Assembly (NCBI GenBank): GCA_964016885.1
Contig: CAXHJY010000818.1
Location: 131,679 to 195,678 of the forward strand
Direction of reading: 5' to 3'
Length of the DNA: 64,000 bases
Source: Eledone cirrhosa
Lineage: Eukaryota
Under the pieces are notes generated by a model that made no database searches, was not told the origin of the DNA, and saw only the letters and a program-made list of their open reading frames with translations. A program made the position numbers and the translations under genes. The first letter of the stretch is position 1, and each line of letters begins with the position of its first letter. Positions 1 through 55,493 of this stretch are shown in pieces.

Positions 1-567
1 CATACCACCTTCGTTGATGTTTCAGAGGTCCCAAGTCTTGCTAGTATGGTGCCATTGTTTTGGCACGGCTTCTATGGTTAGATGCCATTCTAAACACCAG
101 ACATCTAACAATGTACTGGAGAGTATCTTACCCTTTCTGACCCCCAACTGACACCCCTGGAAATACAATTCCATATGATAGAGGGTGGGGTTGTATTAGT
201 TGAGCCAGGTTAATCAATGTCTGGAAGAAATCCTGGCACTGGAATGGTGTAAGTTTTAAGATTATTGATGGGGTCAAATATGAAATATTAGGTTGAAATA
301 TATCAATAATCAATCAATAAACGTAATGAATGCTTAACAAATCGTCCTTGTATTATTATATTACACTGTCTAGCTCTACACCTTGCCACTGACGTGAACC
401 TAAACATCAAGTGCTCACCTGGGTGAACCTACAGTAACTTCATGTTACACTCCCAGGATATATATATATATATATAAAGGGTAAACAAATAACAAAAATA
501 ACAAGACAAACGGCACAGTACGTGGAAGAAATATATTAGTTTAATGCTTGAAATAACAGGGAGAGAG

Positions 568-603
568 TATTAACGTTTCGGACACTAGTCCTTCATCAGA
601 AGA
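568..603 (-). ncRNA. Ultra-minimal hammerhead motif
   Basis: Minus strand TCTT-CTGATGA-aGGAC tagt GTCC-GAAA-CG-TT/AATA. Decayed relatives at 62571-62606(+) and 15396-15433(+). Confidence 0.6.
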
Positions 604-1882: not shown

Positions 1883-2397
1883 AGAAGTTTAGGGAGCTGC
1901 TTCCTCTGCTGACGAAGAAGGGTTTCTCCCTGCGTACGAAAGGCCGGTTATATGATGCCTGTGTGAGGAGTGCAATGCTGCATGGTAGTGAGACATGGGC
2001 AGCAACTGCAGAGGATATGCGACGGCTGGAGAGAAATGAGGCAAGCATGCTCCGTTGGATGTGCAGTGTCAATGTGCGTGAACGACCCAGCATAAATGTG
2101 TTGAGAGAGAAACTGTGTCTGAGAGGGATAGAATGTAGTGTATGGGAGAGGAGACTGAGGTGGTATGGACATGTGATGCACATGGAGGATGACCGATGGG
2201 TGAAGAAGTGCCAGGAAATGCCAGTTGAAGGAAGACGTGGTAGAGGTAGACCATGAAAAACATGGGCGGAGGTGGTGAGAACAGACCTCACGGTGGAGAT
2301 GACGAAGGACCGTGACAAGTGGAGAGATGCTGAATAAGACCCGTCCCACCCTTGCAAGCAGGGAAGAGCGGACGTAGAATGATGATGATGATGATGA
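1882..2397 (+). mobile_element. 5'-truncated RTE-clade LINE 3' end with (GAT)n tail
   Basis: Translation ..GRLYDACVRSAMLHGSETWA..MLRWMC..RRLRWYGHVM..GRRGRGRP* is typical of the RTE/BovB ORF C-terminus. It has a premature stop and ends in gatgatgat. Confidence 0.9.
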
Positions 2398-15270: not shown

Positions 15271-15448
15271 GGTTTATAATGACTAGACAGTATAAGGAGC
15301 AGACACAAGAAAACTTATGTCATTTAATCCACCAAACTAAGATTCTTGTCACTTTATCACATTTTCTTAATTTATTTCTTTTTCTATTTCTCATTCAATC
15401 CTGATGAAGGACTAACGCTTGAAACATTGGTGGAAACAATTTAAAGAT

Positions 15449-15546
<98 letters not shown>

Positions 15547-26822: not shown

Positions 26823-27360
26823 CACACATACATGCACACACACATATATATATACATATATACTCATAACTAAACATATACACATGTATACAATGTGTAC
26901 GTGTAAACAACTATGATTAGCACATTAGTACACAAAGCCAACATATATATAAGAATGTGTGTCTATATATATATTGTGCTTAGTGTTAGGAAGGGCATCC
27001 AGCTGTAAAATACCCAGCCAAATTTACAGTCCTCCCTGGAACAACGTGTGATATGGCCAACTCTGGGTAGACTTGCCTCTAAGCATGGACGACCCGTCGA
27101 ACCCATGCAAGAATTGACACTAAACAGAGATGATGATGATATATATATATATATATATATATAAGCAGAAGGGATATTCAATTTGTTGGTAATTCAACAA
27201 ATATAAATGTTTATAACTGATTCAGAGCACTAGACAGGTTTTCTGGAGTATAATTGTTTCTACTTTTGGCACAAGGCCAGCAATTACCCAGTGTATTACT
27301 GGTGCTTTATTTTATCGACCCCATAAGGATGAAAGGCAAAGTTAATATTCAATGATATTA

Positions 27361-27745
27361 AATACCATTGCCAACAACAACCCTGAGTACCTTTTTGATT
27401 TCCATGTGTCTAACACACATGGACATGCCCACAAAGCCAGAAAACAGCACAGTTCCCATAACTTTCAGAAACATTTTTTCATGCTCAGAGTTGCTGAAGC
27501 ATGGAACAAACTACCTGTGTCAGTTGTTAGCTGTCGAGACACTGCATCCTTTAAAACCTCCATGCTTCCCGAGATTCGCCAACACTACACCTAATGTTCC
27601 CCCTCCATACACATACACACATGTATACCATGACTCATACACTATTCACTTCCCTGACATTTGTGTATTATTCTATGTACTATACATACACCTTTGACGA
27701 GTTGTAGTGCACCTGAGCACTTTACACAATAATTTCATTATTATT
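27361..27745 (+). mobile_element. CR1-clade LINE 3' fragment plus 3' UTR
   Basis: ORF 27352-27594: HGH..K..HFF..RV..AWNKLP..VV...SFK, the usual CR1/L2-group ORF2 C-terminal signature, followed by a short ATT tail. Confidence 0.82.
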
Positions 27746-27775
27746 AAATGGAAACTATATTTATAAAACCATATT

Positions 27776-27837
27776 TATTCTATTATATACATTTCAAGGG
27801 TACCAAAAACTTTGGTACGCTTTCATCAGATAAAATA
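27776..27837 (-). ncRNA. Type I minimal hammerhead motif (inverted twin)
   Basis: Reverse complement of 27947-28008, with stem III TGTATA. Confidence 0.75.
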
Positions 27838-27946
27838 CAAAGAGTGTTTTATAAATTTTGACATAGCCAAGGAACATACCTTAACGGTTGAAGTTTTCCT
27901 TAAGGTATGTTCCTTGGCTATGTCAAAATTTATAAAACACACTTTG

Positions 27947-28008
27947 TATTTTATCTGATGAAAGCGTACCAAAGTTTTTGGTACCCTTGAAATATATATA
28001 ATAGAATA
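27947..28008 (+). ncRNA. Type I minimal hammerhead ribozyme motif
   Basis: TATTTTAT-CTGATGA-[aagcgtaccaaa gtt tttggtaccctt]-GAAA-TATATA-TA/ATAGAATA. Stem I is 8 bp (one G-U), stem II about 11 bp, stem III palindromic. Confidence 0.8.
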
Positions 28009-28088
28009 AATATGGTTTTATAAATATAGTTTCCATTTATTTAATATCATTGTATATATATATATATATATACATATATATACATATC

Positions 28089-28143
<55 letters not shown>

Positions 28144-28307: not shown

Positions 28308-28689
28308 TTTTCCTTTCCTAGGACAAAAAGTCCCAGGAACGGCAAAATATATTGCCATCTGCCAGCTAGCACAGGATCGAATAGTCACACTCCAATAAAT
28401 GTTTCTGGTTGGCTTCAGTTTCTACCTCATCTAACACGAAATTCACAGCTCACACCTACAGTTTCAGCTGGCCGCAAGGTTTGTGCCTCATAGGAGGTTT
28501 CTTGGGTATTTTAATAATAAGGGGGTTAGAAAGAAGGAGGTAGTCCTATCATGAAAAAGCAGCATGAAATGAAGTGACTTGCTCAAGGAAACAACACATC
28601 AAACCAACGATATTATGATCACAAGTCTAACCCACTAACCACTACGCCGTACTCCTTTACTAACTCACATCAATAATTTAATTCTTTCT

Positions 28690-28832
28690 ACTTTTCTATT
28701 TTATCGACCCCGTAAGGCTGAAAGACAAAGTTAAGCTCGGCGGGACTTGAACTCAGATCATGAAGGGCCGTGACTCTATGCTGCAAAGCATGGCGTCTGA
28801 CCCTCTACCGATACTGTCAATCCACCGCTCAT
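28690..28832 (-). mobile_element. SINE family A (reverse)
   Basis: ttttatcgaccccgtaaggctgaaagacaaagttaagctcggcgggacttgaactc is the reverse complement of the family A core and B-box. Confidence 0.75.
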
Positions 28833-31765: not shown

Positions 31766-31823
<58 letters not shown>

Positions 31824-31944
31824 GGAGGTGAGTTTTATTGTAGCACAATAAAGCAATGCAAATATCGGATAAGTAGCACTCAACAGTTTATAGGAGTGGA
31901 GTATAAATAATATAAAACAAAAAGATTGTTAAAAGAGTTCCATG

Positions 31945-32015
31945 TATTTTATTATGCGCATTTCAAAAACAAATATCATCATGGGACGATATTTGCGTTC
32001 TCATCAGATAAAATA
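31945..32015 (-). ncRNA. Type I minimal hammerhead motif (inverted twin)
   Basis: Reverse complement of 32095-32165. Confidence 0.8.
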
Positions 32016-32094
32016 GGGAGACATTAAATCAACATATGTTGATTTAACACTTCACTGCTCGCAAGTGTTTTTTAAGCTTCATATCATGTCTCCC

Positions 32095-32165
32095 TATTTT
32101 ATCTGATGAGAACGCAAATATCATCCCATGATGATATTTGTTTTTGAAATGCGCATAATAAAATA
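32095..32165 (+). ncRNA. Type I minimal hammerhead ribozyme motif
   Basis: TATTTTAT-CTGATGA-[gaacgcaaatatcatc ccat gatgatatttgttttt]-GAAA-TGCGCA-TA/ATAAAATA. Perfect 8-bp stem I. Confidence 0.82.
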
Positions 32166-32193
32166 CATGGAACTCTTTTAACCATCTTTTGAT

Positions 32194-55436: not shown

Positions 55437-55493
55437 CCATGCCCATTCCGAGCTGAGGATCCGCTAAGGTGAAACAATTGTTCTCGGTGTGGT
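55436..55493 (+). ncRNA. Type I hammerhead ribozyme motif
   Basis: CCGAG-CTGAGGA-tcc gctaa ggt-GAAA-CAATTG-TT/CTCGG. Stem I extends through ACCATG/TGTGGT across a bulge. Confidence 0.75.

What the first reader, a model, noticed from the sequence alone, without database searches (positions are those of the whole stretch)
27745..28039. 140-bp perfect-arm palindrome with one intact hammerhead on each strand
Each arm holds a full hammerhead (27776-27837 minus, 27947-28008 plus) pointing outward, so transcription in either direction yields a ribozyme plus its antisense. Near-identical arms imply a recent origin. The inverted arrangement fits the inverted terminal segments known for Penelope-like insertions. 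It abuts a CR1 3' tail on one side and (TA)n on the other.
Basis: partly seen in the sequence, partly recalled or inferred. Interest (0 to 1): 0.75.

Follow-up and report, generated by a model that had tools for sequence, protein, structure and literature searches.

The report
Mirrored Penelope retrotransposon ends with hammerheads
The palindrome is real and is the ordinary footprint of a high-copy Penelope-type jumping gene that landed as two back-to-back copies of its end, each with a predicted self-cutting RNA motif, and its one-long-one-short layout, shared by most such insertions, likely records copying from two start points on one RNA.

Summary
Observation confirmed: 140-bp arms (138/140 matched) with a minimal type I hammerhead on each strand. 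It is a head-to-head pair of pseudo-LTRs of a Hydra-clade Penelope-like element (PLE) inserted in (TA)n. The hammerhead core has 337 exact copies, and 52 of 90 sampled insertions carry an adjacent inverted piece. The boundaries were misread. The true insertion is 27164-28052, and the CR1 3' piece and a SINE-like piece sit inside the left arm's tail. A read-through transcript would fold into a -212 kcal/mol hairpin that buries a hammerhead predicted to need a dimer, so cleavage here is unlikely. No RNA data were available. Family result: two fixed 3' ends about 93 nt apart, each 7-8 nt before a similar small hairpin. 34 of 37 classifiable inverted pairs have one long and one short end. Paired arms share rare variants (23 against 2.0 expected), including an A-to-G cluster in one pair. 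Best model: both ends of a break primed on one sense RNA. Inverted pLTRs, one-sided tails and PLE hammerheads are published. This scan noted the same pattern on other DNA of this genome. New member of a known kind.

The parts
27140..27163 (.). (TA)n target, left flank; the TATA at 27160-27163 is also the element's own next four letters (microhomology at the long end)
   Evidence: read-through copies L053 and L054 continue CTTATAAATAG
27164..27254 (-). Outer part of the left arm's tail, ending at the family's long (L) 3' end; holds the small hairpin that follows the short end
   Evidence: matches the 5' UTR of full-length copies L053, L054 and L056
27255..27342 (-). Truncated piece of a high-copy SINE-like repeat nested in the tail, with TAAT on both sides (duplication or microhomology); the SINE label and its strand are from recall
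   Evidence: the joined form without it exists in other copies; ARAGORN finds no tRNA in the head of a fuller copy
27347..27364 (-). Piece of the left arm between the two nested insertions (spans the short-end position)
27365..27745 (+). 5'-truncated CR1-like LINE 3' end with (ATT)n tail, nested in the left arm
   Evidence: at least 3447 candidates, best other copies 97%; CR1-like ORF2 end in relatives; joined form 27362>27745 in other copies
27746..27901 (-). Left pLTR arm core, 5' start at -72 relative to hammerhead C3; it supplies the 15-nt spacer
27776..27837 (-). Minimal type I hammerhead, stem III palindrome AUGUAUAU, predicted cut after 27784
27885..27901 (.). Head-to-head junction: spacer continues the left arm, TT at 27900-27901 fits both arms (2-nt microhomology)
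   Evidence: locus L002 uses the same point with the spacer on the other arm
27900..28052 (+). Right pLTR arm, 5' start at -55, ending at the family's short (S) 3' end
   Evidence: equals the family majority at 154 of 154 positions
27947..28008 (+). Minimal type I hammerhead, stem III palindrome AUAUAUAU, predicted cut after 28000
28053..28138 (.). (TA)n target, right flank

Best explanation
This is a non-coding, head-to-head pair of hammerhead-bearing ends (pseudo-LTRs) of a Penelope-like retrotransposon inserted in a TA repeat and later split by two other repeats, likely made when both ends of a cut target primed reverse transcription on one sense RNA at two different internal start sites. 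Shown: the arm is the repeat found upstream and about 1.1-1.2 kb downstream of an RT plus GIY-YIG ORF with Hydra-clade motifs; insertions end at two fixed points about 93 nt apart; inverted pairs nearly always have one of each; paired arms share rare variants; 5' ends pile up near a TCACT motif. Inferred: transcription starts at that motif; the element's protein, probably as a dimer, cuts (TA)n; one DNA end primes at the short site and the other at the long site, each 7-8 nt before a small hairpin; both cDNAs run towards the RNA's 5' end and are joined head to head by microhomology; the SINE-like and CR1 pieces inserted afterwards. The two hammerheads are passengers at this locus: they lie on opposite strands, so they cannot form the dimer in cis, and a read-through RNA is predicted to bury them in a 140-bp duplex.
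For: ORF link: L031 and L032; L033-L052; hammerhead upstream of the ORF in L053 and L054; CRH motif to next hammerhead 1118-1231 nt in 3 of 3 copies measured. 337 exact cores, control 0. 52 of 90 insertions have an adjacent inverted piece; 34 L+S, 2 S+S, 1 L+L of 37 with both ends classed; solo ends 19 L and 18 S of 38; 33 of 36 after dropping one duplicate, binomial p 1.1e-7. Shared variants 23 against a permutation mean of 2.0, 0 of 2000 permutations reach it; subfamily marker agrees in 16 of 16 pairs typed on both arms. Both arms of L085 carry the same sense-strand A-to-G cluster, found exactly only there. The short arm reaches further 5' in 16 of 33 pairs and the long arm in 6, so neither arm can always be the template of the other. 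42 of 99 5' starts lie at -81 to -69, with the mode at -79 (11 of 99), the A of TCACT. The hairpin motif occurs 2 times in 2641 nt, 7 and 8 nt after the two ends. Hairpin -211.7 kcal/mol against -7.1 for the monomer hammerhead fold.
Against: No RNA evidence of any kind. The RT call rests on motifs and by-eye likeness to published Hydra proteins: Pfam gives no RT hit, GIY-YIG scores below its cut-off (E 0.0066), PDB gives nothing. No intact source copy was found among those read. Shared variants could come from gene conversion between arms after insertion. The 16-to-6 bias is not significant (p 0.052). The small hairpins fold weakly (-2.7 to -5.2 kcal/mol; z from -1.4 to +0.1). 15 of 52 inverted insertions had an end that could not be classed. 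No read or contig bridges this locus's own junction. The CR1 piece has 4 of 378 positions seen in none of 7 other copies, against 2 of 401 for the arms, so its being younger than its host rests on the nesting alone.
Confidence: 0.7

Rival explanations
1. Self-priming or fold-back: one cDNA (or an antisense template, as proposed for rotifer Penelope elements) snaps back and is copied to make the second arm, which the endonuclease trims at the short site.
For: Explains shared variants directly. In this locus the long arm reaches further 5' and supplies the loop, as fold-back needs. 11 of 33 pairs start within 5 nt of each other. Proposed in PMC3846280 (passages).
Against: In 16 of 33 pairs the short arm reaches further 5' than the long arm, and in L086, L107, L112 and L125 the long arm lacks the hammerhead, holding little more than tail, so the long arm cannot have templated it. 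The L085 changes are A-to-G on the sense strand in both arms, which points to a sense template.
Confidence: 0.17
2. Two separate RNA molecules from the same source prime the two ends, and later gene conversion evens out the arms.
For: Many arms reach the 5' pile-up independently. The Anolis enzyme extends both strands with no strand difference in start site (PMC11167929).
Against: Independent choice predicts about half mixed pairs, and 33 of 36 are mixed. The A-to-G cluster is rare in the genome yet identical in both arms of L085.
Confidence: 0.1
3. The locus is a working or selected RNA device (bidirectional ribozyme or siRNA hairpin).
For: Both catalytic cores are complete; a read-through RNA would give a 140-bp duplex that Dicer or ADAR could use.
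Against: The same layout is found at about half of family insertions; both arms lack the likely start site; no transcript evidence; nothing sets this copy apart.
Confidence: 0.03
4. Assembly artefact (fold-back chimera).
For: The contig is a small unplaced one, and no read bridges the junction.
Against: The arms differ at two bases and end at the two biological end points; one arm holds nested elements; raw Illumina reads of two other samples show a head-to-head junction of another family copy (6 and 4 reads).
Confidence: 0.02

Closest known systems
Hydra clade of C-terminal-endonuclease Penelope-like elements (Craig et al. 2021, PMC8557442; e.g. Hydra-1_Obim, Hydra-1_Ajap)
   Same: RWR for RWK, DKT, CxCx5C linker, CxxC and CxH around the conserved E and N, sense-strand hammerhead in the pLTR, (TA)n target. 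By eye the N-terminal and RT motifs line up with the supplement's Hydra proteins.
   Different: Not Hydra-1_Obim: its listed hammerhead and protein differ, and two DNA motifs of this family have 0 hits in the supplement. The unit is about 3.6-3.7 kb with a 1.1-kb 3' non-coding part, against 'generally under 3 kb'.
Inverted pLTR insertions with a one-sided tail (PMC8557442; PMC3846280)
   Same: Head-to-head 5'-truncated pLTRs, tail at one end only, microhomology at the junction, TCACT initiator-like motif, solo pLTR insertions.
   Different: Tail is 92-94 nt, not 30-40; the one-long-one-short rule is counted here (34 of 37).
Minimal type I hammerheads of metazoan PLEs (Cervera and de la Pena 2014, PMC4209133)
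   Same: Type I, long stem II, short palindromic stem III, dimer architecture; opposite-strand pairs 100-700 bp apart were already reported in Schistosoma.
   Different: A10.1-U11.1 instead of the usual G-C, no extra base after A9, and an invariant C.pyrimidine mismatch at the fourth pair of stem II (19 of 19 rows).
Internal RT initiation of Anolis Poseidon (Frangieh et al. 2024, PMC11167929)
   Same: Two internal start sites bounding the tail, AT-rich target, both strands extended, hammerhead not needed for insertion.
   Different: Sites here are about 93 nt apart in the 5' UTR, and the genomic pairs show the two sites coupled, which that assay did not test.
Animal non-LTR retrozymes (bioRxiv 10.64898/2026.07.22.740005)
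   Same: Small, non-coding, type I hammerhead, PLE-related.
   Different: No head-to-tail monomer array here; the arm is the pLTR of a coding family in the same genome.

Membership tests
EN+ Penelope-like element | Single ORF with RT and C-terminal GIY-YIG linked to the repeat | tested here: met
   ORF pieces in L033-L052: YRDD in 8 of 20, GIY-YIG-like motif in 13 of 20. Profile support is weak: GIY-YIG E 0.0066, below cut-off; no Pfam RT hit. The window copy itself is non-coding.
EN+ Penelope-like element | pLTR on both sides of the ORF, direct or inverted | tested here: met
   Upstream in L053 and L054, downstream in L032, L055 and L057, both plus an inverted copy in L056.
EN+ Penelope-like element | [quoted passage not shown] | tested here: met
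   Left arm long, right arm short; 34 of 37 classifiable family pairs likewise.
EN+ Penelope-like element | RT groups with PLEs in a tree | not tested
   No reference sequences were loaded; comparison by eye only.
EN+ Penelope-like element | Retained intron in the pLTR or 5' UTR (some families) | tested here: inconclusive
   Donor-like AAG/GTATGT at about -53 and a possible acceptor at about +111 would put the hammerhead in an intron; no spliced copy in the genome; no RNA run.
Hydra clade | RWK motif and DKT in place of DKG | tested here: met
   RLRWRA-type motif in 5 of 20 and SDK[TS]N in 6 of 20 loci; most loci are 5'-truncated.
Hydra clade | CxCX5C linker rather than CX2-5CxxC | tested here: met
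   CNCRIKSNC in the translations; pattern in 15 of 20 loci, at least one hit spurious; the Neptune/Nematis pattern in 1 of 20, in unrelated sequence.
Hydra clade | CxxC and CxH either side of E and N; no CCHH in the endonuclease | tested here: met
   CKLCIEE in 15 of 20; NLRTELFSSCRH seen, though the loose pattern (18 of 20) includes spurious hits; one Cys in the GIY-YIG core of L038 by eye.
Hydra clade | Insertion into (TA)n | tested here: met
   Both ends here; TATATA follows 27 of 50 short-class and 23 of 37 long-class ends, most others being TA-like.
Type I minimal hammerhead | Complete core, stems I and II, palindromic stem III, UH cleavage site | tested here: met
   Across sister families 13 of 22 pairs change on both sides, but those rows were picked by a descriptor that demands pairing, so the count is inflated.
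Type I minimal hammerhead | G10.1-C11.1 pair (highly conserved, not absolute) | tested here: not met
   A-U here; A-U 12, G-U 4, G-C 3 of 19 rows.
Type I minimal hammerhead | Self-cleavage | not testable with these tools
   Needs a bench assay.
Non-LTR retrozyme | Head-to-tail tandem monomers each with a hammerhead | tested here: not met
   Two arms head to head, no tandem array.

The most novel reading that the evidence does not exclude
Hydra-clade PLE integration is a coupled twin-priming reaction on a single sense RNA: two small hairpins 93 nt apart each position one RT of a dimer, each end of the cut (TA)n primes at one of them, and the two cDNAs are joined head to head. This one rule would explain the inverted pLTR, the one-sided tail and the 5' pile-up together, and RNA edits frozen identically in both arms act as natural barcodes that show it.
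Probability: 0.5. Interest if true: 0.6.

Novelty: new member of a known kind. Interest (0 to 1): 0.3.

Why it matters
The locus itself is one of hundreds and matters little. The family counts bear on an open question named in PMC8557442 and PMC11167929: how PLEs, the retroelements closest to telomerase, build inverted ends and a one-sided tail. A 33-of-36 long-plus-short rule, shared rare variants and a motif 7-8 nt behind each end give direct predictions for the existing in vitro PLE assay. If such hairpins are read through, they would also be a large source of long double-stranded RNA, but no RNA data support that here.

Tried and rejected
Rfam: no hammerhead family hit; the miRNA hits are sub-threshold matches to the hairpin and were rejected. 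First guess of Neptune or Nematis clade: dropped after the Hydra motifs matched. Retrozyme array: rejected, no tandem monomers. CR1 as flank: rejected, it is nested. Capture of the CR1 and SINE-like pieces during the PLE's own reverse transcription: considered; the CR1 piece is on the opposite strand with its own (ATT)n end and its divergence is similar, so later insertion is preferred but not proven. Intron hypothesis: no spliced genomic copy, left open. Expression: no RNA holder listed, which is no evidence either way. Locus-level read support: no record bridges the junction in X1, X2, X3, X5, X8, X9 or X10; RAD reads and short contigs are poorly suited. Pfam and PDB did not recognise the RT. 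ARAGORN found no tRNA in the SINE-like head. The window's ORF list showed only simple-repeat frames and an RT fragment, so no gene context was established. Lunse et al. 2017 (PMC5785218) is not held, so whether this stem II variant was already tested is unknown. Paper searches listed no paper that counts the long-plus-short coupling; the library lacks most subscription papers, including Arkhipova 2006 and Evgen'ev and Arkhipova 2005. A search of earlier scan notes by sequence found nothing.

Full report
Observation. The inverted repeat is as described: arms 27745-27884 and 27900-28039, 15 nt apart, mismatched at 27790 and 27843. Each arm holds a minimal type I hammerhead at the coordinates given, with predicted cuts after 28000 and 27784. 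A strict descriptor finds 4 motifs in the window (these two and a second pair at about 32 kb) and none in 30 shuffles. Rfam does not recognise them.

Family. The genome is a 3.0-Gb animal assembly; earlier scan notes call it an octopus, which I did not test. The arm has at least 1447 candidates (40 scored), and its 38-nt core has 337 exact copies against 0 for the reversed control. Longer copies tie the arm to an ORF with YRDD, a CNCRIKSNC linker and a GIY-YIG-like domain, about 1.1-1.2 kb upstream of the hammerhead. A second copy of the repeat lies upstream of the start codon in L053 and L054. The arm is therefore the pLTR, with the hammerhead on the sense strand. I first read the clade as Neptune or Nematis; an earlier scan note pointed to Hydra, and the published features (PMC8557442 section 11) were met when checked: RWR, DKT, CxCx5C, CxxC and CxH, (TA)n. 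It is not Hydra-1_Obim. Profile support for the RT is absent and no tree was built.

True anatomy. The left arm does not stop at 27745. It continues at 27347-27364 and 27164-27254 and ends in (TA)n. A CR1-like 3' piece (27365-27745; best other copies 97%; RVT_1 in a relative) and a SINE-like piece (27255-27342; label from recall) are nested in it. The joined forms without them exist in other copies. The right arm runs to 28052. The insertion is 27164-28052 with (TA)n on both sides.

Family counts. Of the first 100 exact cores listed in genome order I fetched 99 (237 more were not listed); they collapse to 90 insertions. 52 of 90 have an adjacent inverted piece; this is a lower bound, since pairs more than 1 kb apart (L090, L117) were not scored as pairs. 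There are two fixed 3' ends 92-94 nt apart. Of 37 inverted insertions with both ends classed, 34 are long plus short, 2 short plus short and 1 long plus long; 15 had an end that could not be classed. Solo ends are 19 long, 18 short and 1 other. Dropping one segmental duplicate gives 33 of 36, p 1.1e-7 against a half. 42 of 99 5' starts fall at -81 to -69, mode -79, the A of TCACT; 8 starts at -519 and 3 at -84 are alignment or reference edges. In 51 pairs (top hits plus the ordered sample plus the window; 10 loci dropped as overlapping or suspected duplicates, of which L104 and L115 were not in fact duplicated) the arms share 23 variants against a permutation mean of 2.0, with 0 of 2000 permutations reaching it; 7 of the 23 come from L085 and 4 are one common variant. 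Single-arm differences average 134 in 5324 nt (2.5%), so this locus (1.4%) is typical. Both arms of L085 carry the same six sense-strand A-to-G changes, matched exactly nowhere else and with one mismatch at one other place. The short arm reaches further 5' in 16 of 33 pairs, the long arm in 6, and 11 are within 5 nt (p 0.052). Following a lead from earlier notes, I found an RCTC...TYGAGY hairpin 7-8 nt behind each end, 2 hits in 2641 nt and 0 in 1693 nt; it folds weakly. By eye the published Hydra-1_Ajap 5' end shows a similar motif twice.

Mechanism. Shown: identity, ends, coupling, shared variants. Inferred: a start at TCACT; cutting of (TA)n; priming by both DNA ends on one sense RNA, one at each site; head-to-head joining by microhomology (TT here; L002 uses the same point with the roles swapped); later SINE-like and CR1 insertions. 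Fold-back cannot make pairs in which the short arm is the longer at the 5' side. Two independent RNAs predict half mixed pairs. Gene conversion remains a way to explain the shared variants.

The ribozymes here. The stem III palindrome implies dimers (PMC4209133), and the two copies lie on opposite strands. A read-through RNA folds at -211.7 kcal/mol against -7.1 for the hammerhead fold. The arms start at -72 and -55, past the likely start site. Cleavage at this locus is therefore unlikely, and untested. The motif is kept across sister families (13 of 22 pairs change on both sides, rows picked by a pairing descriptor), with A10.1-U11.1 and an invariant C.pyrimidine mismatch in stem II that the descriptor did not demand. 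That A-U at 10.1 lowers activity is from recall.

Artefact check. No record bridges this junction. Raw reads of two other samples show a head-to-head junction of another copy, and the arms end at the two biological end points, so an artefact is unlikely.

Known work, and what I saw of it. PMC8557442: passages, section 11 and supplement hits. PMC11167929: parts 1-2 of 4. PMC4209133: parts 1-2 of 4. PMC3846280 and PMC6765202: passages. bioRxiv 10.64898/2026.07.22.740005: part 1 of 5; its supplement is closed. PMC5785218: not held. Inverted pLTRs, one-sided tails, opposite-strand hammerhead pairs and internal start sites are all in these papers. Six searches listed no count of the long-plus-short coupling, within a library that lacks most subscription papers. 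Earlier notes of this scan report the same rule, the twin hairpins and frozen edits on other DNA of this genome; they are unchecked notes and not independent support. I had the long-plus-short count before reading them.

Verdict. Real, a new member of a known kind, boundaries corrected; ordinary as a locus, with a testable mechanistic point at family level. Interest 0.3.

Noticed in passing
window 31820-32190: Second head-to-head hammerhead pair of a sister family (stem III AUGCGCAU), also with one long and one short end in (TA)n.
   Followed up: partly
L085:1330-1830 (G000:C1, about 338.189 Mb) and L159: Both arms share six sense-strand A-to-G changes, five of them in the predicted stem that closes the hammerhead region, as ADAR editing would leave; a third copy elsewhere has nearly the same pattern.
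   Followed up: partly
alignment A1, columns 19 and 49: C opposite C or U at the fourth pair of stem II in 19 of 19 hammerhead rows from several families; possible conserved tertiary or protein contact.
   Followed up: partly
window 27900-27915 and L053:3285-3455: Donor-like AAG/GTATGT upstream of the hammerhead and a possible acceptor downstream would make the ribozyme intronic; no spliced genomic copy.
   Followed up: partly
window 563-599 (-), 1909-1952 (+), 15401-15450 (+), 55453-55485 (+): Further hammerhead-like cores of other families; they did not pass the strict descriptor.
   Followed up: no
L072 and L074; L123 and L124: Near-identical insertions with the same junctions at two places, probably segmental duplicates.
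   Followed up: no
window 28680-28830: A fuller copy of the SINE-like repeat whose fragment is nested in the left arm.
   Followed up: no
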